Of a stretch of 32,000 bases of DNA, positions 146 through 20,173 are shown piece by piece. The position numbers and the translations under genes are program-made. A model generated the notes under the pieces. It ran no database searches, was not told where the DNA came from, and was given only the letters and a program-made list of their open reading frames with translations. Numbering within the stretch: the first letter of the stretch is position 1; every line of letters starts with the position of its first letter. The DNA comes from an uncultured Chloroflexia bacterium (GTDB taxonomy: Bacteria > Chloroflexota > Ktedonobacteria > Ktedonobacterales > JADMIN01), in contig CAVRAI010000009.1 in the NCBI GenBank assembly GCA_963718915.1, forward strand, positions 1 through 32,000. Reading direction: 5' to 3'.

Positions 146-4510
<4,365 letters not shown>

Positions 4511-4730
4511 GACAATCACTCCTGAGGCGCGAGGATGGCGACGGGAGGAAAACTGCCGGGATCATCCTCATTGATGATGTGTGTCTCCAACGGTTTGGTA
4601 TCTCTACCCAGTATAGTGCAAAGGCGCGGGCCAATGCTTTTCCACTGGTGAGGGGAATCTCTAGCCATTGTAGCAGGCGGCTCATCCGATGGGACGATGT
4701 ATCGTATTGGATTTGGCGATATGACGCGCG

Positions 4731-13023: not shown

Positions 13024-13233
13024 CTACCCGTGATGATCTTCCTCGTCTGGCTGAAAGATGGCCTCGATGGGCATGCCAAACAGTCGCGCAATCTTGAATG
13101 CCAGCGGCAGGCTGGGATCATACTTGCCTGTTTCCAGCGCGTTGACGGTCTGGCGCGAGACCTCCAGATGGTCGGCGAGGTCGGCCTGCGACCAGTCCCG
13201 TTCCGCACGTAGCAGCCGTAGCGAATTCTTCAT
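13024..13233 (-). CDS. Small XRE-family HTH transcriptional regulator (about 69 aa)
   Basis: MKNSLRLLRAERDWSQADLADHLEVSRQTVNALETGKYDPSLPLAFKIARLFGMPIEAIF is a textbook short Cro/C1-type HTH. I chose the ATG at 13233 because GGGAG lies 6 nt upstream. The ORF-track start at 13302 would overlap the upstream gene. Confidence 0.85.
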   Translation of the reverse strand: MKNSLRLLRAERDWSQADLADHLEVSRQTVNALETGKYDPSLPLAFKIARLFGMPIEAIFQPDEEDHHG

Positions 13234-13250
13234 GGGTGGCTCCCAAAACG

Positions 13251-13607
13251 CTAGCGATAGCGATAGGCGGCCACCGCCGCGCCGATTCCCCACAGGGCAC
13301 ACATCAGCGGCAACACCCAGATCATGCTGAGCCGCGGAAAACCAGCATTCTCCAGCAGTTCCCAGGTAAAGGTCAGCAGGGCTGTCGCGGCTGCGGCGAA
13401 TCCTGCCGCGACTAACTGGATGCGTCGTTGCAATTCATCCATGCGCTCGACGTAACGAACCACCGCTAGCACCACTAGTGTCGCGGGAATGGCTGGCAGC
13501 ACTGCCACCAGCCCGCGCCACCCCGCCTCTGGGTTACGCTCGATCAGGTAGATCGAGAGCAGCAGCAGAACAACATAGGCGCCCATGGCGCTGAAAAACC
13601 GGATCAT
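13251..13607 (-). CDS. Small 4-TM membrane protein, co-transcribed partner of the XRE regulator
   Basis: The 118-aa product has four hydrophobic segments. It ends 17 nt before the regulator's start. This regulator-plus-membrane-protein pairing is a common arrangement. Confidence 0.7.
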   Translation of the reverse strand: MIRFFSAMGAYVVLLLLSIYLIERNPEAGWRGLVAVLPAIPATLVVLAVVRYVERMDELQRRIQLVAAGFAAAATALLTFTWELLENAGFPRLSMIWVLPLMCALWGIGAAVAAYRYR

Positions 13608-13878: not shown

Positions 13879-14823
13879 ATGTATCAGCGAATATTGACGC
13901 CGCTTGACGGCTCAGCCTATGCCGAGGCGGCGCTGCCGGTGGCGGCGCGCATTGCCCAGGCCAGCCATGGCACGGTGGTGCTGCTGCATGTGCTGAGCGG
14001 TCCGCGCGAGCTACTGCCGTATGTTCTGCCGATGATGGAGCCGTCCACGCTGACCTCCGATGTGGAGGCCGCATCCGCATATCTCGAAGCGGCGTCCGGT
14101 CGTTCTGATCTGGCCGACGTGACCACCATCACCGAGGTACGCTCCGGGCTGGTTGGCTCGACCATTCTGGATGTGGCGGCCCACCAGCAGGCCGACCTGG
14201 TGGTGCTGGCGGCGCACGCGCATACGGGGCTAGCGCGCTGGGCGCCGGGCAAAGTCGCCGAGCATGTGGAGCATCGTGGCGCCATGCCGGTGCTTTCGCT
14301 GACCGACACCGACGCGCTTCCCGCTGAGGGGAAGCCCGCGCAGGGTCTGGTGCTGCTGGATGGCACGGAGGAGGCGGAAGCGGCGATTGCGCCCGCAATG
14401 CAGTTGCTAGAAGCGCTCAGTGGTTCAGAGCAGACCAATGCCACGCTGCGGCTCGCCTGGATCGGCGCCTTCGCGCCTGACGCGCCCTCGCACCATCCCG
14501 CCGACGACAATGTCGCGCTTTATCTGCGCACGGTGGAAGAACGTCTGCACGGCGAAGCAACCGCCAACTGGCCGTTTACCGTCACCTCGGAGGTGATCGC
14601 GGAGCAAGACCTACCACAGGCGGTGGCGGAGCTTGCCAGCCAGAAGCAGGTGACTTTCCTCGCGCTCGCGCCGCACGGCAAACGCGGCTACCCGCTCCAC
14701 ACCAGCGCGGATTTCGACGTCCATCTGCGCGGCGCGACGGCGCTGCCGCTGCTGATCGTGCCACGGAACGCGACGGCTGCCGGGGGAACCCAGACAATGC
14801 AAGACACCCCACCTCGCCAGTGA
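13879..14823 (+). CDS. Universal stress protein with tandem UspA domains
   Basis: MYQRILTPLDGSAYAEAALPVAARIAQASHGTVVLLHVL...DLVVLAAHAHTGLARWAPGKVAEHVEHRGAMPVLSL is followed by a second, degenerate USP-like half. I chose the ATG at 13879 because GAGGAG lies 7 nt upstream. The ORF-track N-terminus (from 13696) runs through the repeat arrays. Confidence 0.85.
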   Translation: MYQRILTPLDGSAYAEAALPVAARIAQASHGTVVLLHVLSGPRELLPYVLPMMEPSTLTSDVEAASAYLEAASGRSDLADVTTITEVRSGLVGSTILDVAAHQQADLVVLAAHAHTGLARWAPGKVAEHVEHRGAMPVLSLTDTDALPAEGKPAQGLVLLDGTEEAEAAIAPAMQLLEALSGSEQTNATLRLAWIGAFAPDAPSHHPADDNVALYLRTVEERLHGEATANWPFTVTSEVIAEQDLPQAVAELASQKQVTFLALAPHGKRGYPLHTSADFDVHLRGATALPLLIVPRNATAAGGTQTMQDTPPRQ

Positions 14824-14863
14824 CGCCGGGTGGGGTATCAGGGTTTTTGAGGTGTTCCAGGAA

Positions 14864-15799
14864 TTATGGCATATTCCCGGATCCTTGCGCTGCTCCAGAA
14901 TTTGCGGCTTTTTTCTCGGAGCGCCTCAAAAAGCTCGGAAGTTTATATTGCCATCCAACGGGAGCTTTCGCAAGGGTGATGAGCTTCTCCCACAATTTGA
15001 TTGCGTCGTCAATATCAGCTCGTATCTGGCGCGCAACTACTCGCATCACATCGGCATCGTAGATGCCCTCTTTACCCGCAAGATCAAGCTGCTTGAGATT
15101 CTCGCCTAACAGGTAACGAACGCTGTGACTAAACTGATGCTCAGCACTGGCAATGTGCTTGACTTTACGGCGGTGCGATAGGAAGGCGCGTGAAGCGCTC
15201 GAATCCGACGCGGCAGGATTATTGCTGGAACCGGTTTGCGAAGAGGTCAGAGTCGTCTGGGATGGGCTGGTGGATTGAAGCGCTTTGGAAGCGCCTGTTG
15301 CTGGATTAGGCAGCGTCTCACCAGCCACTGTCGTTGCTGACGGTATCAAGTCAAGCATGAGTCCCAAAGTAGCGCTTGTTTCTGTAAATACCTGGATCAA
15401 GTTCCCGCCTCGCGCGATGAACTTCATGCAAAATTCCTCGGAATGGCTAGGTAGCCCTCGAGCATGTCTGCGGTCTGGTGGTAGTTCTTGCGAGTCGGCC
15501 ACTACTGCATCGAACTGTAAGATTGTACTCACGCAAGTGACGATCCGAGAGCGAATGAATTCGGCGACACGCAGCGTTAGATATGGATCATGGCCAAGTT
15601 GCTGACCAATGCGGGCGAGTTCGTTTCGGGCAAAACCTCCAAGAGTTGAACCCGCAGCCACTAGCGGAACGGCTGCTTCGATGATATCACTCAGCAGCTT
15701 TGACTGCGCATCTAGTCGCACGCCGTTGTTGTGGTCGTTTAGCAACGTCTGAACCAGAGTTTGCAGCAGGCCAAGACGCCCGTCAACTCCATCCGACAT
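14864..15799 (-). CDS. Hypothetical 311-aa protein in the low-GC island: two helical regions joined by an S/T/P-rich linker, with HRRKVKH (R-x4-H) at the start of the C-terminal region
   Basis: This is the only long ORF here. GAGAGAGG lies 6 nt upstream of the ATG at 15799. I recognise no family. The R-x4-H match to the HEPN motif is weak, single-motif evidence. Confidence 0.6.
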   Translation of the reverse strand: MSDGVDGRLGLLQTLVQTLLNDHNNGVRLDAQSKLLSDIIEAAVPLVAAGSTLGGFARNELARIGQQLGHDPYLTLRVAEFIRSRIVTCVSTILQFDAVVADSQELPPDRRHARGLPSHSEEFCMKFIARGGNLIQVFTETSATLGLMLDLIPSATTVAGETLPNPATGASKALQSTSPSQTTLTSSQTGSSNNPAASDSSASRAFLSHRRKVKHIASAEHQFSHSVRYLLGENLKQLDLAGKEGIYDADVMRVVARQIRADIDDAIKLWEKLITLAKAPVGWQYKLPSFLRRSEKKAANSGAAQGSGNMP

Positions 15800-15907
15800 G
15801 GTAATGCCTCTCTCGCATGGCTAACGCTGCCAATTGCCTTGGCACGCATGAGCAGGACTCGTTATTTGTCGTATATGTCACTGTGAACTACCTTGTTGAT
15901 GCATCGC

Positions 15908-15918
15908 AGTATAACACA
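15908..15918 (-). promoter_or_regulatory. Extended -10 promoter element (TGTTATACT) for the 311-aa gene
   Basis: The minus strand reads TGTGTTATACT, about 105 nt upstream of the ATG at 15799. I found no convincing -35, which is acceptable for extended -10 promoters. Confidence 0.4.
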
Positions 15919-16186
15919 AGTTGTTCGCTCATGCACGGTAATCGTGATTGATTCAACAACGTTTCGTTGTGCGGATGGTTAACTACTTTTCAAGGTAATG
16001 GCATGAGATCAATCGCGACTAATGCGGTATTTAACTCAGTTAATGGCAAGTCACTCTAAAGTGATCGCGCCGAAAAATCAAGTCAACTACTACGCAATAA
16101 TGGTACTACAAACTTACTGCATCAATCAAGACTATATGGCATGACACATCATATTAGAATATAGATAGCCAATGCGTAATAGGTGT

Positions 16187-16244
16187 TTGACACTGCTCCA
16201 GTGGGGCTTGTATGCTGGCTATCTTGGCGCAAAGCTGGTATAGT
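16187..16244 (+). promoter_or_regulatory. Two sigma70-like promoters facing the XRE-like operon
   Basis: The first is TTGACA (16187-16192), an 18-nt spacer and TATGCT (16211-16216). The second is an extended -10, TGGTATAGT (16236-16244). Either would give a leader of about 330 nt before the ATG at 16584. Confidence 0.4.
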
Positions 16245-16583
16245 ACGTAGGTACTAGCCTAAACAGTAAGTAAGTGACGACTAACTTCCGATTCCAAAAC
16301 TCAACGCGAGAATGCCGCTTCTGATTGTGTTGAGCCATGGGTTGCACCGGCGATTCGTTTGACGCCACAACAATGCTCCACGCCTGCTATATGGTGGTTG
16401 AGATAGATGGCGCGGGGCGCAAGCGAGTGGCGCGAAGGTGAGCATCAACCAGCATCGTCCTCGCACATATCTAATTAGCGGGAGAAGGATGGTCTCCTTT
16501 CCGCGCTCTTCTGGATTTGTGTGGCCGACGATGTCGCAGAGTTCTGGTTGGCGCCACACTCGACCAGAGAAGCGAGGTCTCTC

Positions 16584-17024
16584 ATGAATGCGGAACGTGA
16601 AAGTATTCCTGTGCGCGAGTTCGACACATTTGGGCAGGCATTGCAATTCTATCGGGAGAATATCTCAGAACGAATTCGGCGCTACATACCTGGAGGCCAC
16701 CTAGCGCCTGTTCAACTGACCGTGAAAGATGTCGTGTCGGAAATGAATAAGGCTGGTTTTCCAATAAGCCAGGCAGCCTATTCTGATATAGAGCAAGCTC
16801 GCTATTTGCCAAAAGAGCCTGGAAAGTTCTTCGAGGCAGTCGTTTTATGCCTTGCGCTTGAACAAGGTACCCCAGAGTATCAGAATCTCATGGATCATCT
16901 TCTGTTTGATGTTTTGAAGCAGAAATTTGGTGAAAACGAGGCGGCACTGTACCGCAATGAGATTCTCGATTTACGCAAGAGTGGCTCAAAAAGAAGATCA
17001 CGAAGGCCACCAGCACGACAGTAA
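16584..17024 (+). CDS. Divergent XRE-like HTH protein with a basic C-terminal tail
   Basis: FGQALQFYRE...LTVKDVVSEMNKAGFPISQAAYSDIEQARYLP...FFEAVVLCLAL fits a Cro/C1-type 5-helix layout with an insertion. The tail reads KSGSKRRSRRPPARQ. The start is either the ATG at 16584 or the GTG at 16521, and I cannot resolve which. Confidence 0.6.
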   Translation: MNAERESIPVREFDTFGQALQFYRENISERIRRYIPGGHLAPVQLTVKDVVSEMNKAGFPISQAAYSDIEQARYLPKEPGKFFEAVVLCLALEQGTPEYQNLMDHLLFDVLKQKFGENEAALYRNEILDLRKSGSKRRSRRPPARQ

Positions 17025-17118
17025 TAATCTGGCTTTCACGTATATTTGACCGTACGCTTGACTCTGCCCTTCTGCTAATGTACTATTGTGCCATCGATCA
17101 GAGACTAGTAGTTAGCGG

Positions 17119-17445
17119 ATGGGGAATGTGATGTCTGCACAAGACTTCGGTCTTGCCCTGCAAGCCTGCCGCAACTCTACTTCTCACAACATGCTTGCGC
17201 AATGTATGTTCCCCGCATTCCGCCCATCGGTTACCGTAGCCCCCTTGCTCACCTCACAGCAACTGGAACAGCATTTACAGGAGATCGAGGCCGGGCATGT
17301 GTGGCCATTTGGTCGCTCTGACCTCAAGTCATTTGTCTCCGGAGTGCTTAACTGTTTGAGACGGCGGCCTAGTCCCCATGTTGAGTACGATTTCAAACAG
17401 GCCGCGGCAATCTATTTTACCGAATTGGGGTTCGTAACCCCATGA
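17119..17445 (+). CDS. Hypothetical 108-aa protein, a distant paralog of the preceding XRE-like protein
   Basis: It shares a pattern with 16584..17024: FGxALQxxR ... (I/L)ExxxxxP ... F..xV(V/L).CL. It lies in the same low-GC operon. Confidence 0.5.
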   Translation: MGNVMSAQDFGLALQACRNSTSHNMLAQCMFPAFRPSVTVAPLLTSQQLEQHLQEIEAGHVWPFGRSDLKSFVSGVLNCLRRRPSPHVEYDFKQAAAIYFTELGFVTP

Positions 17446-17498
17446 GCATCAGGTTCTCGCTTAGACACGAATCGTTGAAGCGTCTTGGAGGGATAGTT

Positions 17499-17987
17499 AT
17501 GCATGCGGCGAGTCATTCGACAGATACCCAGGCGATCACCAAAGCAGCGGAAACAGTGGCCGGTATTCTGGATATTCTCGCGATCCAAACAGCGGACGAA
17601 TCTGTTCCACTTTCTGCTGTTCGCATGAGGCGACTTTCGTCTGAACTTCAAGAAATGATTCGTCGCAATGACAATCCATCGACCCTTCGATTACGAACTC
17701 TTGAAGGGGTGAAGCTTGCCAAACGAGATGTTCAGGCACAGGCACGTTTGGCACTACAACTCAACAAGCCGTTGCAACGGAAACGCAGGTCCGCGGGCTT
17801 CTTCCAAAGGCTGCCATTTACTCGCCAGACTACCGATTCAACCATAGAGGATGTGGAAAACAACGAGCATAACGACATCTCCAAACTTGATATAGGCGCC
17901 AGGCGTCTCCTGGAGAACAGCAAAATTCTTTTGAATATTCTCGCCGAGATACGAACTCGCCTTGATGCCGCCGCGTTTCTGGTGTGA
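17499..17987 (+). CDS. Hypothetical helical 162-aa protein, third gene of the island operon
   Basis: GGAGGG lies 6 nt upstream of the ATG at 17499 (MHAASHS...). The alternative ATG at 17442 overlaps the previous stop (ATGA) but lacks an SD. I recognise no family. Confidence 0.55.
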   Translation: MHAASHSTDTQAITKAAETVAGILDILAIQTADESVPLSAVRMRRLSSELQEMIRRNDNPSTLRLRTLEGVKLAKRDVQAQARLALQLNKPLQRKRRSAGFFQRLPFTRQTTDSTIEDVENNEHNDISKLDIGARRLLENSKILLNILAEIRTRLDAAAFLV

Positions 17988-18172
17988 CCGTGACCGATCA
18001 GGTACAAACATGATCTCAGGCCCACGTCCAGAAAACAACGCCATAGCGCATAGATTCCAGTGCACTACCTGATAACGTGATGAATCTCACATCCTTCGCA
18101 CATCCGCCTCACATCTAGAGCGATCATACTGAGAAGACACTGCGTGTCCCTCAGCCACTGGAGGCGGATGTC

Positions 18173-19666
18173 GTGCGGATCATCTCTATGCGCCTGCGGG
18201 GTTTCCTCGCGACGCGCGCCGGGCGCATATTCCTGGCGATCCTTGTCGTCGCGGTCGCCATCCGCATTCCTCTGATGACTTTTCGCGGCTATTATTCGGA
18301 TCTCGCGACCTACATCGGCTGGGGCAATACCGTCGTTCAGCACTTCTTCGACATCTACACGTCCACGGCTTCAACGGGAGTCGGCGGTTTCCCAGGCGGA
18401 GGAGGCTTTCCAGGTGGATTTCCGGGTGGAGGCTTCCGTGGTGGTGGGTTCGGAGGGACTGGCGGAGGCGGCGGTGGCTCGATCAACTACCCGCCGGGGA
18501 TGCCCTACCTCTTCGGCGTGGTGGTCTTCGCCTACAATCAATTTGTGCTCCCACTCACCCATACCTCCCTCGATGCACTGGTGCGGCAGGATGGCTTCGG
18601 GCCGTTCTTTGCCAAGATTCCCCTGCTGATCGCCGATGTGGCCACCATGGTGTTGCTCTATGTCTGGGCGCGCCGTCGCCGCTCCGAACGATTCGCGCTG
18701 GCAGTCGCCGCCGCATACGCCTTCTCGCCCGCCGTGCTCTATGATGGCGCGCTCTGGGGGCAGACGGATGCGCTGGTCGCGCTACCGATCCTGGCCGCCA
18801 TCGTCGCGCTGACCTCCGAACGCTACGCGCTGGCAGGCGTCAGCCTCGCGGTTGCGCTGCTGCTCAAGCCGCAGCCGATCATCTTCGCGCCGCTGATCGC
18901 GCTCTGTGTCTGGCGTTGGGCCACGCGGGAACAGTTTGCCCGCTTCGCGGTCGCTGGCCTGCTGGCGGGGTTGCTCTTCCTGCTGCCGGTGATTCTGCCG
19001 CATTTCCAGCTGGTTGATATGGTGCGGAACATGCAGTCGGCATCGTACAACGACAATCTCGGCTTAAGCTCGGACGCCTTCAACTTCTGGTGGCTGATTG
19101 GCTATGGGCAACAGGCCATTGGCAGCGCGTTCCTGGGCGTCAAGAGCGGGCTGGTGGGCGATGCGCTCTATGGCGTGGTGACGCTGCTCTGCGGCGCGCA
19201 GGTCTGGCGGCGGCGCGAGCCTATCATCCTGGTCTTCGGCCTGGCAGTGCAGCTTTTTGGCTTCTTCCTCTTCATGGGCGGCCAGCATGAGCGCTACCTG
19301 TTCCTCTTCATACCACTCGCGCTTGCCAGCCTGGTTCTCGCGCGCCGTGAGGAGCGACCGTATCTGGTGGCGCTCTATGCGCTTGGTACGGCGCTCTGCT
19401 TCCTCAATATGGTGGTCGGGGTGGGCGGCGGCACATTTGGCGGCGGCGAGCCGATTCCCTTCCTCACGCTACCGTCGTTGCGCGCCTATCTCTCCGCCAA
19501 CTTCGCCTGGCTCAGCGCCACTATCGCCGCCATGCACGTGGTGGTATTCGCCTACACCATCTATGTCTATCTGGCCATCCTGGGCAACGCGCCACTGTCC
19601 AACCTGTCAATCACGCAGTCGGCTAACAGACCCGCTGGTGAGCCTGCCCTCAGCCACGGCGAATAA
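18173..19666 (+). CDS. GT-C-fold integral membrane glycosyltransferase (DUF2029/PMT_2-like) with a glycine-rich insertion in the first external loop
   Basis: There are about 11-12 hydrophobic segments. The first loop carries YYSDL...then GVGGFPGGGGFPGGFPGGGFRGGGFGGTGGGGGGS (nt 18377-18478), followed by INYPPGMPYL. The YPP motif is typical of this group. The start is GTG 18173 with GGAGG 8 nt upstream. Confidence 0.65.
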   Translation: MRIISMRLRGFLATRAGRIFLAILVVAVAIRIPLMTFRGYYSDLATYIGWGNTVVQHFFDIYTSTASTGVGGFPGGGGFPGGFPGGGFRGGGFGGTGGGGGGSINYPPGMPYLFGVVVFAYNQFVLPLTHTSLDALVRQDGFGPFFAKIPLLIADVATMVLLYVWARRRRSERFALAVAAAYAFSPAVLYDGALWGQTDALVALPILAAIVALTSERYALAGVSLAVALLLKPQPIIFAPLIALCVWRWATREQFARFAVAGLLAGLLFLLPVILPHFQLVDMVRNMQSASYNDNLGLSSDAFNFWWLIGYGQQAIGSAFLGVKSGLVGDALYGVVTLLCGAQVWRRREPIILVFGLAVQLFGFFLFMGGQHERYLFLFIPLALASLVLARREERPYLVALYALGTALCFLNMVVGVGGGTFGGGEPIPFLTLPSLRAYLSANFAWLSATIAAMHVVVFAYTIYVYLAILGNAPLSNLSITQSANRPAGEPALSHGE

Positions 19667-19680
19667 CATAGTCAGCCAAT

Positions 19681-19955
19681 TTATAGCCGCGAGGAGAGTT
19701 TATTGTATTCTTCGTGAGTACCAATCCAGAACCACGTGATTGTATCGCCATTCAAGAATCCGATGGCACGATAATGGTCTCCAGCTCGCGCCGAGTAGAT
19801 TGATGGATCTCGTTTGCCAATCTGTTTGAACTGTAAGCTCGGATGTCGTGGGTTCTGCTGAATAACTGGTAATCTGCGCTGGCCTGACGTTGTGCGCGTT
19901 CGGGAAGAGCATTAAAGAGCGCTCGGAAGCGTTTTGTGCGCCGTGAGCGAAACAC
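19681..19955 (-). pseudogene. RelE/ParE-superfamily-like toxin gene disrupted by a 1-nt deletion
   Basis: Frame A reads (GTG 19955) FRSRRTKRFRALFNALPERAQRQASADYQLF. A third frame, not in the ORF track, continues QNPRHPSLQFKQIGKRDPSIYSARAGDHYRAIGFLNGDTITWFWIGTHEEYNKLSSRL* with its stop at 19683-19681. The frames join at TTC-AG-CAG (about 19856-19862). The start overlaps the antitoxin stop (TAGTG). Confidence 0.7.
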
Positions 19956-20173
19956 TATTCCCAGCCGCCGTCTTCAACGTCGCCGCGCGCGATCTCAGCA
20001 CGAGCTTCGGCAGCGAGGCCCTCTAGTGTCTCCTGGCCTTCCGGGCTACTGACGATGGCGTCCCATTCTTGCTCATCCAGCCACGCCTCGATCTGGGCGG
20101 CCAACTGACGCTGCGCCTCGTCCGAGAGTTGCTGTTGCGCCTGCTCGAACGCACGAAGCAATTCGTCTACCAT
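19955..20173 (-). CDS. Small acidic antitoxin-like protein (72 aa), intact
   Basis: AAGGAGG lies upstream of the ATG. The product is acidic and helical (MVDELLRAFEQAQQQLSDEAQRQLAAQIEAWLDEQEWD...). The gene overlaps the downstream toxin-like gene by 1 nt. The family assignment comes from gene context only. Confidence 0.55.
   Translation of the reverse strand: MVDELLRAFEQAQQQLSDEAQRQLAAQIEAWLDEQEWDAIVSSPEGQETLEGLAAEARAEIARGDVEDGGWE

What the first reader, a model, noticed from the sequence alone, without database searches (positions are those of the whole stretch)
14830..18170. Lower-GC island with an unrecognisable 311-aa protein (R-x4-H) divergent from an operon of two XRE-like paralogs and a helical protein
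Between the USP gene and the glycosyltransferase gene, the sequence composition changes visibly and is much more AT-rich than the rest of the window. The island has four genes of no family I can name. One is a minus-strand 311-aa protein: helical N-terminal region, an S/T/P-rich linker (TLPNPATGASKALQSTSPSQTTLTSSQTGSSNNPAASDSSAS), then a helical C-terminal region opening with HRRKVKH. That sequence fits the R-x4-6-H motif of HEPN RNases, but it is a single weak motif. On the plus strand are two mutually related, highly diverged XRE-like proteins (FGQALQFYRE.../FGLALQACRN...) and a 162-aa helical protein with a basic centre. The two transcription units are separated by a 780-bp gene-free region. 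It carries outward-facing extended -10 promoters (TGTTATACT on minus at 15908-15918; TGGTATAGT on plus at 16236-16244). It also carries a repeated motif, ATGGCATGA, at 15998-16006 and 16136-16144, with a TAATGGCAAG variant at 16041-16050. The plus transcript would have a leader of about 330 nt. This leader includes a 32-codon uORF (16489-16587) whose stop overlaps the ATG at 16584. A regulator-rich layout around an effector-like protein on horizontally acquired DNA resembles toxin-antitoxin, abortive-infection or prophage-immunity modules. It matches no system I know, so it is my best candidate in this window for an undescribed system.
Basis: partly seen in the sequence, partly recalled or inferred. 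Interest (0 to 1): 0.7.

Follow-up and report, generated by a model that had tools for sequence, protein, structure and literature searches.

The report
Acquired Ktedonobacterales regulator cassette, function unknown
A 3.3-kb low-GC island carries a rare four-gene cassette found only in Ktedonobacterales soil bacteria: two related DNA-binding regulators and two helical proteins of unknown role, with conserved promoter and operator sites, and no sign of the proposed HEPN RNase.

Summary
The island is real. GC is 0.50 against 0.63±0.013 elsewhere, GC3 is 0.44-0.57 against 0.73-0.81, and the edges sit at about 14830 and 18150. All four ORFs are real genes with homologues, all from Ktedonobacterales MAGs or unnamed soil-type contigs. 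None matches Pfam, NCBIfam, PHROGs or PADLOC.

- **A (146 aa):** a very divergent XRE-type HTH protein. Its best fold match is M. tuberculosis EspR.
- **B (104 aa):** a shorter paralogue of A (hhalign E 1.7e-6).
- **C (162 aa):** helical, and evolves fast.
- **D (311 aa):** a long helical bundle from a tiny family. All four relatives found lie next to an A-family gene. The R-x4-H motif is not conserved and no HEPN fold appears, so the HEPN idea fails.

New cis findings:
- A pseudo-palindrome, TAGTAC-N4-GTACTA+GCC (16241-16259), is conserved about 300-360 nt upstream of A in four lineages, and with one mismatch in a fifth.
- A TTGAC[A/T]-17/18-TACnAT promoter lies in the A-B spacer, with its TTGAC and TAC core invariant in 8 of 8 loci, so B-C likely form their own unit.
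- The uORF is not conserved.
- ATGGCATGA alone is at chance level, but it belongs to a thrice-repeated composite unit.

The function is unproven. A toxin-antitoxin-like or defence role is possible but has little support.

The parts
14830..18150 (.). Low-GC island between the USP gene stop (14823) and the GT87 gene start (18173)
   Evidence: GC is 0.50 against 0.631±0.013. The 200-nt profile drops at 14800-14999 and recovers at 18100-18299. GC3 is 0.44-0.57 against 0.73-0.81. No flanking direct repeats, tRNA or integrase were found.
14864..15799 (-). Gene D: a 311-aa all-helical protein with a disordered S/T/P-rich insert (aa 156-205) specific to this copy
   Evidence: Only 3 representatives in 1.84 billion proteins, plus a remote relative in L023 (hhalign E 6.5e-5). 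AF2 pLDDT 71.7, pTM 0.66, long helices. No significant fold match and no HEPN hit. The motif is not conserved.
15908..15916 (-). Candidate extended -10 (TGTTATACT) for gene D; prediction only
   Evidence: The sequence is present. The consensus scan did not flag it. L010 has TGGTATAGT upstream of its D gene.
15929..15955 (-). Composite repeat copy 1: ATCAATCACGATTA (15939-15952) followed by GTGCATGA. It is the left arm of a 27-nt inverted repeat with 16118-16144.
   Evidence: The inverted repeat matches 20 of 27, above all 40 shuffles (maximum 19). The 14-mer pattern occurs 3 times in 32 kb, all here, and 0 of 100 shuffles reach 3.
15998..16021 (+). Composite repeat copy 2, permuted: ATGGCATGA then ATCAATCGCGACTA
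16102..16108 (+). GGTACTA, an extra copy of the operator half-site
   Evidence: GGTACTA occurs only twice in the 32-kb window, here and in the operator.
16118..16144 (+). Composite repeat copy 3: ATCAATCAAGACTA then TATGGCATGA
   Evidence: L010 has a related ATCAATC..CTATAC inverted pair with 159-nt spacing.
16187..16244 (+). Promoter region of gene A: TTGACA-18-TATGCT (16187-16216) and the extended -10 TGGTATAGT (16236-16244)
   Evidence: Consensus scan. The region aligns with a TTGCnn-18-TATGGT block in L010, L007, L023, L026 and L029. Which start is used is not known.
16241..16259 (+). Candidate operator: the perfect pseudo-palindrome TAGTAC-gtag-GTACTA, followed by GCC
   Evidence: GTACTAGCC occurs exactly once per locus, at -333, -334, -300 and -363 from the A start in four lineages. 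L029 has GTGCTAGCC. The surrounding DNA cannot be aligned.
16260..16583 (+). Long leader of gene A; its length is conserved (300-363 nt) but not its sequence or fold
   Evidence: Fold z-scores are -0.03 to -1.9. RNAalifold gives -1.6 kcal/mol. No Rfam match. No conserved small ORF. The last ~25 nt (GACAGAGAAGCGAGGTCTCTC-ATG) are conserved and contain the ribosome-binding site.
16489..16587 (+). 32-codon uORF overlapping the A start; probably fortuitous
   Evidence: None of L010, L007, L018, L023 or L013 has an overlapping upstream ORF.
16584..17024 (+). Gene A: 146 aa, a divergent XRE/EspR-like HTH domain plus a C-terminal helical hairpin
   Evidence: 12 family members with the invariant motif ISQAAYSDIEQ.xYLP. 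AF2 pLDDT 79.8. Best PDB matches are EspR (E 0.046, probability 0.97, TM to 0.62) and the TP901-1 CI N-terminal domain. 5 of 12 members give weak HTH_31 hits.
17058..17086 (+). Conserved internal promoter for B-C: TTGACT-17-TACTAT; its -10 overlaps a GTACTA half-site (17080-17085)
   Evidence: TTGAC and TAC..T are invariant in 8 of 8 loci in an otherwise unalignable 106-194-nt spacer. The consensus scan flags it.
17131..17445 (+). Gene B: 104 aa, a shorter paralogue of A that lacks A's last helix
   Evidence: hhalign of A1 against A4 gives probability 89.8%, E 1.7e-6. 7-member alignment. Identity between loci is 28-49%.
17499..17987 (+). Gene C: 162 aa, a helical protein with a basic centre and a C-terminal leucine-rich helix
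   Evidence: Homologues sit in the same position in L010, L008, L013, L023, L024 and L028. Identity is 21-32%. No family, PDB or D-family relationship.

Best explanation
The island is a horizontally acquired accessory cassette restricted to Ktedonobacterales (Chloroflexota).

**Parts**
- The core is a pair of paralogous, very divergent XRE-type helix-turn-helix proteins.
- A has the same domain layout as EspR: an N-terminal HTH domain and a C-terminal helical domain, likely for dimerisation.
- B is a shorter copy without A's last helix.
- C is a fast-evolving helical protein that usually follows B.
- D is a long helical-bundle protein, usually transcribed divergently. It is not a HEPN RNase.

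**Likely logic (inferred)**
- A dimers bind the conserved pseudo-palindrome TAGnAC-N4-GTACTA at or near the start of A's long-leader transcript. This would give autoregulation.
- A may also bind related GTACTA half-sites, including one over the -10 of the conserved B-C promoter.
- The three ATCAATCnnGAyTA/TGsCATGA repeats lie between the divergent promoters, possibly bridging sites as EspR does. Together these would couple expression of D, A and B-C.
- B would modulate A by competing for sites or by forming mixed complexes.
- C and D are non-enzymatic cargo or partner proteins.

**Status of the steps**
- Shown: island composition, gene reality, co-occurrence, A/B paralogy, the HTH-like fold of A, conservation of the operator-like and promoter-like blocks, and the absence of a HEPN signature.
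- Inferred: who binds what, and every physiological role.

My split for the role is about 0.25 for a TA-like, immunity or defence-island module, about 0.3 for a lineage-specific regulatory cassette, and the rest unknown.
For: **Composition**
-.

**Real genes with homologues**
-.

**Taxon**
- The only named relatives are Ktedonobacterales MAGs.

**Co-occurrence**
- A-B-C is found in the window, L010, L007/8/9/12, L013, L023, L024 and L028.
- A-B alone is found in L018 and L002.
- D-family genes lie beside A-family genes in the window, L010, L023 and L014.

**Protein evidence**
- A/B paralogy.
- Fold of A. Weak HTH_31 hits.
- EspR architecture and looping behaviour: PMC3315491.

**Cis elements**
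- Operator block.
- B-C promoter.
- Repeats.

**Divergence and mobility**
- In syntenic L010 and L013, identity falls in the order PglX 79%, A 66%, B 40%, C 31%.
- The cassette GC is lower than its flanks in 7 of 9 loci examined.
Against: - No DNA-binding, interaction or expression data exist.
- A's fold matches have E-values of 0.05-0.3, not below 0.001, and no member reaches a Pfam threshold.
- The operator motif is absent from L018, L026 and the distant L014/L016 loci.
- The 14-mer repeat pattern was defined after seeing the copies. It is specific to this window, apart from a partial resemblance in L010.
- Chloroflexota promoter rules are assumed to be sigma-70-like.
- No effector-type domain was found in any of the four proteins.
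- The D model rests on a 3-sequence alignment.
- B and C were not modelled.
Confidence: 0.5

Rival explanations
1. First reader's model. D is a HEPN-type RNase toxin or effector, held in check by the XRE-like proteins. This would make the cassette a new toxin-antitoxin or abortive-infection system.
For: - D contains HRRKVKH, which fits R-x4-H.
- D is transcribed divergently from regulator genes.
- Some homologous cassettes lie next to BREX or TIR genes.
Against: - R210 is N in P0014. H215 and K212 are not kept in the L023 relative.
- The AF2 model is a long multi-helix bundle. Its best matches are designed bundles at TM ~0.2, with no HEPN entry in the top 50 of PDB or BFVD.
- No profile or PDB sequence hit.
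Confidence: 0.03
2. A tripartite addiction or immunity module of the omega-epsilon-zeta or PaaR-PaaA-ParE kind. A is the transcriptional regulator. B-C (and/or D) form a non-enzymatic toxin/antidote pair that diversifies quickly and rides in variable or defence islands.
For: - The regulator gene comes first, and the B-C unit has its own conserved promoter.
- The operator-like site is palindromic.
- Distribution is sporadic. Single samples yield two different cassettes: SRR29757245 gave L023 and L029, and the SRR345022xx runs gave L014 and L018.
- Identity falls steeply, A > B > C, relative to a neighbouring gene.
- GC is lower than the flanks.
- Neighbours include BREX PglX and BrxC, a TIR protein and a STAND-like ATPase.
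Against: - No toxin-like fold or motif was found.
- A 300-360-nt leader and long intergenic spacers are atypical for toxin-antitoxin loci.
- C is missing in L018 and L002.
- L010 and L013 share synteny, so BREX counts as one context. Defence neighbours then occur in about 2 of 8-9 contexts.
- Other contexts are housekeeping genes: USP and GT87 here, and lipase and HAD hydrolase in L002.
Confidence: 0.22
3. An ordinary lineage-specific transcription-factor cassette. It would act in development, stress or secondary metabolism in these mycelial Chloroflexota, much like the XRE/small-protein WhiJ-BldB clusters of Streptomyces. It would have no conflict function, and the low GC would reflect transfer between Ktedonobacterales of different GC content.
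For: - A and B are HTH-like.
- The regulatory region is elaborate, with a long leader, as at the EspR-regulated espACD locus.
- Neighbours include TetR, LacI, a response regulator and a TPR plus AAA_16 protein pair.
- Homologues in other loci have near-host GC of 0.56-0.61.
Against: - The family is extremely rare: 12 clusters in 5.8 billion proteins.
- B, C and D diverge fast.
- The genomic context varies, and part of it is defence genes.
Confidence: 0.3
4. A remnant of a prophage or integrative-element immunity region, with a CI/Cro/CII-like switch and divergent promoters.
For: - A's second-best fold match is the TP901-1 CI N-terminal domain.
- One C homologue gives a weak hit to phage CII (E 0.036).
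- The cassette has divergent promoters with repeated sites.
- The island has foreign composition.
Against: - No integrase, tRNA or att-like repeats, and no phage genes in the window.
- No relative in 2.9 million viral contigs, 50,697 phage genomes or 72,556 plasmids.
- No PHROG hit.
- None of the fetched homologous loci has phage genes.
Confidence: 0.08

Closest known systems
EspR (Rv3849) of Mycobacterium tuberculosis, an atypical XRE-like HTH regulator (PDB 3R1F, 3QF3, 3QWG)
   Same: - It is the best structural match for A.
- The size is similar: 132 against 146 aa.
- The layout is the same: an N-terminal HTH domain and a C-terminal helical dimerisation domain.
- EspR acts through several sites spread over a long (~1.3 kb) upstream region by bridging and looping (PMC3315491). 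Here a long upstream region also carries several repeated sites.
   Different: - There is no significant sequence similarity, and the fold E-values are only 0.05-0.3.
- EspR is a genome-wide, nucleoid-associated regulator. It has no adjacent paralogue and no C- or D-like partners.
- DNA binding by A has not been tested.
SinR/SinI (and SlrR/SlrA) of Bacillus subtilis: an XRE-type repressor with an adjacent truncated paralogue that antagonises it
   Same: It offers a working analogy from my own knowledge: an HTH repressor encoded next to a smaller paralogue, each with its own promoter.
   Different: - SinI keeps only the oligomerisation helices.
- B instead keeps the HTH-like part and lacks A's last helix.
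- There is no sequence relationship.
- There are no C or D equivalents.
Tripartite toxin-antitoxin systems with a separate regulator (omega-epsilon-zeta; PaaR2-PaaA2-ParE2)
   Same: - The regulator gene comes first, followed by two small genes.
- Autoregulation through an operator is likely.
- Distribution is sporadic and island-borne.
   Different: - No Zeta, ParE or other toxin fold was detected.
- B is a paralogue of the regulator.
- The leader and spacers are long.
- C is absent from some loci.
XRE-DUF397 (WhiJ/BldB-type) gene pairs of Streptomyces
   Same: Both are multi-copy, lineage-restricted pairs of an HTH_31-type regulator and a small partner, in a mycelial, sporulating bacterium. 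A-family members give weak HTH_31 hits.
   Different: - B is not DUF397, and no Pfam hit was found.
- A is about half the size of WhiJ-type proteins.
- The comparison rests on my own knowledge and was not tested further.
HEPN-domain RNases (R-x4-6-H)
   Same: This copy of D carries a single R-x4-H string, and its C-terminal half is helical.
   Different: The motif is not conserved in the family and there is no HEPN fold match.

Membership tests
HEPN RNase superfamily (for D) | A conserved catalytic R-x4-6-H motif | tested here: not met
   The window has R210-x4-H215. P0014 has N at 210 (NKGKARH) and P0015 has R. Once the L023 relative is added, K212 and H215 are no longer invariant.
HEPN RNase superfamily (for D) | A compact four-helix up-down bundle recognisable by structure comparison | tested here: not met
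XRE / Cro-CI-type HTH family (for A) | A sequence match to HTH_3 or HTH_31 profiles at the curated threshold | tested here: not met
   The window's A gives no hit. 5 of 12 family members hit HTH_31 only weakly (best E 0.023). A PDB profile search gives only E 1.5, to a designed XRE-like binder.
XRE / Cro-CI-type HTH family (for A) | A five-helix HTH fold with a recognition helix | tested here: inconclusive
   The top 13 Foldseek hits are all EspR chains (probability up to 0.98, TM to 0.62 on the HTH-domain chains). The TP901-1 CI N-terminal domain also appears, but all E-values are >= 0.046. The invariant ISQAAYSDIEQ.xYLP reads like helix 3 of XRE proteins.
XRE / Cro-CI-type HTH family (for A) | Sequence-specific DNA binding to a dyad operator | not testable with these tools
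   A candidate conserved dyad exists, but binding has not been tested.
Known anti-phage defence systems (PADLOC-DB v2) | At least one protein matching a system model | tested here: not met
   None of the four proteins gives a hit at E <= 1.
Type II toxin-antitoxin systems | A recognisable toxin family member next to the antitoxin or regulator | tested here: not met
   B, C and D have no Pfam, NCBIfam, PADLOC or PDB relationship.
Type II toxin-antitoxin systems | Toxicity neutralised by the cognate partner | not testable with these tools
   This needs expression experiments.
Prophage immunity region | Embedded in, or derived from, a phage genome: phage genes, an integrase, att sites, or homologues in phages | tested here: not met
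   No tRNA or att-like repeats. The flanks are housekeeping genes. No relatives in IMG/VR, INPHARED or PHROGs.
Structured cis-regulatory RNA (riboswitch or leader) for the ~330-nt leader | A conserved secondary structure or an Rfam match | tested here: not met
   No Rfam match, even at E <= 1. Fold z-scores are -0.03 to -1.9. RNAalifold consensus energy is -1.6 kcal/mol.

The most novel reading that the evidence does not exclude
The cassette is an undescribed conflict system restricted to Ktedonobacterales, of the toxin-antitoxin, abortive-infection or immunity kind. Its effectors are non-enzymatic helical proteins: C and/or the D family. They would be gated by an EspR-like repressor and its truncated paralogue, acting through a conserved dyad operator and a separately promoted B-C unit. 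The fast divergence of B, C and D would then reflect an arms race.
Probability: 0.2. Interest if true: 0.65.

Novelty: new variant of a known kind. Interest (0 to 1): 0.42.

Why it matters
If the cassette is only a regulator module, it adds a very divergent branch of XRE/EspR-like HTH proteins. It also gives a defined operator and promoter set for a poorly studied phylum, which is useful but modest.

If it is a conflict or addiction module, it would be a system whose effectors have no recognisable enzymatic fold, in a lineage whose defence repertoire is little explored.

Either way, the conserved cis-elements at 16241-16259 and 17058-17086 give concrete, testable handles. They are also among the few comparative clues to promoter architecture in Ktedonobacterales.

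Tried and rejected
- **HEPN for D:** rejected.
- **C as a paralogue of D's N-terminal half:** it looked plausible by eye, but hhalign gives probability 0.3%.
- **The 389/390-aa TPR-like divergent proteins of L007 and L018 as D relatives:** rejected.
- **The L014 128-aa middle gene as a B homologue:** not supported (probability 1%).
- **A structured RNA or riboswitch in the leader:** no support.
- **A conserved small ORF or uORF in the leader or intergenic region:** none.
- **ATGGCATGA as a significant repeat on its own:** rejected.
- **Nucleotide conservation of the whole upstream region:** absent between diverged loci.
- **Integration scars (direct repeats, tRNA):** none.
- **Phage or plasmid origin:** no hits.
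- **PDB profile searches for A, B, C and D:** nothing significant.
- **Finding the window's own genome or close relatives, to test presence or absence of the island:** not possible.
- **Source names:** the collection holds no names or accessions for the four proteins.

Full report
**1. The observation**

The compositional island is real and sharp.
- GC is 0.50 over 14864-17987. Equal-sized windows elsewhere in the 32 kb average 0.631 (sd 0.013, minimum 0.60).
- In 200-nt windows the drop falls at about 14830, just after the USP gene stop. Recovery falls at about 18150, just before the GT87 glycosyltransferase start.
- Third-position GC of the four genes is 0.44-0.57, against 0.73-0.81 for USP, GT87, TyrRS, aconitase and an ABC ATPase.
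- The flanks are housekeeping genes.
- There is no tRNA, no Rfam match and no flanking direct repeat worth noting.

Independent gene calls on a public copy of this DNA give D at 14864-15799 (-), 311 aa. They also give A at 16584-17024, B at 17131-17445 and C at 17499-17987, of 146, 104 and 162 aa. None of the four hits Pfam, PADLOC, PHROGs or NCBIfam.

**2. Are they real genes, and do they travel together?**

Yes to both.
- A has 11 homologues at 51-66% identity among 5.8 billion clusters. One block, ISQAAYSDIEQ.xYLP, is invariant.
- The only named sources are Ktedonobacterales MAGs. The rest are unnamed metagenome or read-archive contigs, one of them labelled farmland.
- Fetching their contigs shows A-B-C in the same order in L010, L007/8/9/12, L013, L023, L024 and L028. 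A-B occurs without C in L018 and L002.
- D is much rarer. An exhaustive HMMER scan of 1.84 billion representatives found only three family members, and a profile search added none.
- P0014 is the divergently transcribed neighbour of A-B-C in L010, exactly as in the window (29% identity, E 7e-28).
- P0015 lies two genes downstream of a 237-aa A-family protein in L014.
- The 291-aa divergent neighbour in L023 is a remote D relative (hhalign E 6.5e-5 over 227 columns).
- So all four D-like genes found sit beside an A-family gene.
- In L007 and L018 the divergent position is instead filled by an unrelated 389/390-aa TPR-like protein. In L007 an AAA_16/NACHT-like ATPase follows it.

**3. What the proteins are**

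*A.* With the 12-sequence alignment, AlphaFold gives pLDDT 79.8 and seven helices.
- The top 13 Foldseek PDB hits are all chains of M. tuberculosis EspR. Probability reaches 0.98, TM reaches 0.62 on chains that cover only the HTH domain, and the best E-value is 0.046. The TP901-1 CI N-terminal domain also appears.
- Five of 12 family members give weak HTH_31 hits.
- EspR has an N-terminal HTH domain and a C-terminal dimerisation domain. It bridges several sites across a long upstream region (PMC3315491).
- I therefore accept 'XRE-like' at the fold level. It is not family membership by the curated sequence criteria.

*B.* B is a paralogue of A. BLASTP alone is weak (E 0.096), but the two family profiles align at probability 89.8%, E 1.7e-6. 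The match covers the FGxALRxYR helix, the IExG..P turn and the following helix. B ends before A's last helix.

*C.* C is helical and basic in the middle, has a leucine-rich C-terminal helix, and has no detectable relatives. It is not related to D.

*D.* D models as an elongated bundle of roughly 30-residue helices (pLDDT 71.7, pTM 0.66). The S/T/P-rich stretch (aa 156-205) is disordered and is an insertion specific to this copy.
- Foldseek against PDB and BFVD gives nothing at E <= 0.001. The hits are designed bundles and ClyA-type toxins at TM ~0.2, with no HEPN entry in the top 50.
- HRRKVKH aligns with NKGKARH and RKGKAEH. Neither K212 nor H215 survives once the L023 relative is added.
- The HEPN proposal is therefore not supported.

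**4. The regulatory DNA**

Upstream regions of different lineages cannot be aligned overall, but short blocks stand out.

(a) *An operator-like dyad upstream of A.*
- GTACTAGCC occurs exactly once per locus. It lies 333, 334, 300 and 363 nt upstream of the A start in the window, L010, the L007 group and L023. L029 has GTGCTAGCC.
- It is the right half of a pseudo-palindrome, TAGnAC-N4-GTACTA. In the window the palindrome is perfect: TAGTAC-gtag-GTACTA, 16241-16256.
- A TTGCnn-18-TATGGT promoter-like block precedes it in the other lineages.
- The long leader is therefore conserved in length. It has no conserved sequence, structure, Rfam match or small ORF.
The 25 nt before ATG 16584, including the ribosome-binding site, are conserved, which fixes the A start.

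(b) *A promoter inside the A-B spacer.*
- The spacer is 106-194 nt long. It contains TTGAC[A/T]-17/18-TAC[T/C/G]AT, whose TTGAC and TAC core is invariant in 8 of 8 loci. In the window this is 17058-17086.
- B-C therefore very likely form their own transcription unit.
- The -10 of this promoter overlaps a GTACTA half-site in five of the eight loci.
- In the window GTACTA occurs seven times in 32 kb. Four copies are in these promoter regions. GGTACTA occurs only twice, at 16102 and 16250.

(c) *Repeats between the divergent promoters.*
- It is, however, part of a composite unit, ATCAATCnnGAyTA plus TGsCATGA. The unit is present three times: 15929-15955 inverted, 15998-16021 permuted, and 16118-16144.
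- The 14-mer occurs nowhere else in the window, and 0 of 100 shuffles reach three copies. The pattern was defined after seeing the copies.
- The 27-nt inverted pair exceeds all 40 shuffles.
- L010, the other locus with a close D homologue, has an ATCAATC..CTATAC inverted pair with similar spacing, 159 against 162 nt.

**5. Context and evolution**

- The cassette's GC is below its flanks in 7 of the 9 loci examined. The deficit is 5-9 points in six of them and 13 points here. The window copy looks like a recent transfer from a lower-GC relative.
- Neighbours vary. L013 has BREX PglX (E 1e-146) and BrxC (E 7e-98), and the syntenic L010 has PglX. L008 has a TIR_2 protein. L007 has a STAND-like ATPase with a TPR protein. 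L024 has TetR. L002 has lipase and HAD hydrolase. The window has USP and GT87.
- Counting synteny, defence genes are neighbours in about 2 of 8-9 independent contexts. That is suggestive, not compelling.
- In the syntenic pair L010/L013, PglX is 79% identical while A is 66%, B 40% and C 31%. D-family members are 27-31% identical to one another.
- The partners thus diverge much faster than the regulator.
- No relative was found in viral contigs, phage genomes or plasmids.

**6. Most likely mechanism**

*Shown:*
- The cassette is acquired and restricted to one lineage.
- Its core is two paralogous HTH-like proteins.
- It has three separately promoted units: D; A with a long leader; and B-C.
- It carries a conserved dyad and repeated half-sites.

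*Inferred:*
- A, dimerising through its C-terminal helices as EspR does, binds the dyad to autoregulate. It may also bind the related sites at the B-C promoter and between the divergent promoters, which would couple the units.
- B lacks the last helix and modulates A.
- C and D are non-enzymatic partners or cargo.

The physiological role is open. I put roughly 0.25 on a TA-like, immunity or defence role, 0.3 on a plain lineage-specific regulatory cassette, under 0.1 on a prophage remnant and about 0.03 on the HEPN model.

**7. Comparison with known systems**

- The cassette works most like EspR or SinR-type HTH regulators that have a paralogous modulator.
- Its layout recalls tripartite toxin-antitoxin systems with a separate regulator.
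- It is not a demonstrable member of any of these. The sequence criteria for XRE are not met, no toxin family is present, and no PADLOC system matches.

**8. Verdict**

This is a real, conserved cassette that matches no described system, with newly defined cis-elements. The headline idea of a HEPN effector is refuted and no function is established. Interest is moderate (0.42). I class it as a new variant of a known kind: an HTH-regulated accessory cassette. There is about a 0.2 chance that it is a truly new conflict system.

Noticed in passing
window 146-4519 (-): The 1457-aa aconitase ORF is interrupted by an intein. Aconitase and Aconitase_C domains flank an Intein_splicing match spanning residues 552-1060.
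   Followed up: no
window 19752-20173 (-): Two small adjacent ORFs (72 aa, then 67 aa) meet at 19955, where the ranges share one base. They sit in a second, milder GC dip (0.546 at 19501-20000). The layout looks like a toxin-antitoxin pair, but Pfam and PDB sequence searches found nothing.
   Followed up: partly
window 13024-13607 (-): A canonical small XRE regulator (HTH_3, E 4e-15) lies directly downstream of a hydrophobic 118-aa ORF with no family. It contrasts usefully with the highly divergent A and B proteins.
   Followed up: no
window 18173-19666 (+): The GT87/PMT-like membrane glycosyltransferase carries a glycine-rich low-complexity insert (GGFPGGGGFPGGFPGGGFRGGGFGGTGGGGGG) near residue 70.
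   Followed up: no
L013 1785-10433; L010 3461-4573: A BREX-like cluster has BrxC, an unknown 196-aa protein, and PglX. PglX ends convergently against the A-B-C cassette. No pglZ or brxL follows within the contig. PglX is 79% identical between the two loci, while the cassette proteins are 31-66% identical.
   Followed up: partly
L023 1925-1965 (leader of its A gene): The leader contains a tandem repeat of about 10 nt (CCGACTTCAA x3-4). The other leaders lack it.
   Followed up: no
L016 1-1145 and L017 1-1148: Two JGI contigs carry a distant A-like gene (37-38% identity). Each is preceded by at least 1.1 kb without a convincing ORF, and this stretch is 77% identical between the two contigs. A long upstream non-coding region therefore also marks remote family members.
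   Followed up: partly
L007 3-2431 (-); L018 13-1185 (-): A conserved 389/390-aa TPR-like protein (58% identity) takes the place of D as the divergent neighbour. In L007 an AAA_16/NACHT-like ATPase follows it, giving a STAND-like pair with no PADLOC match.
   Followed up: partly
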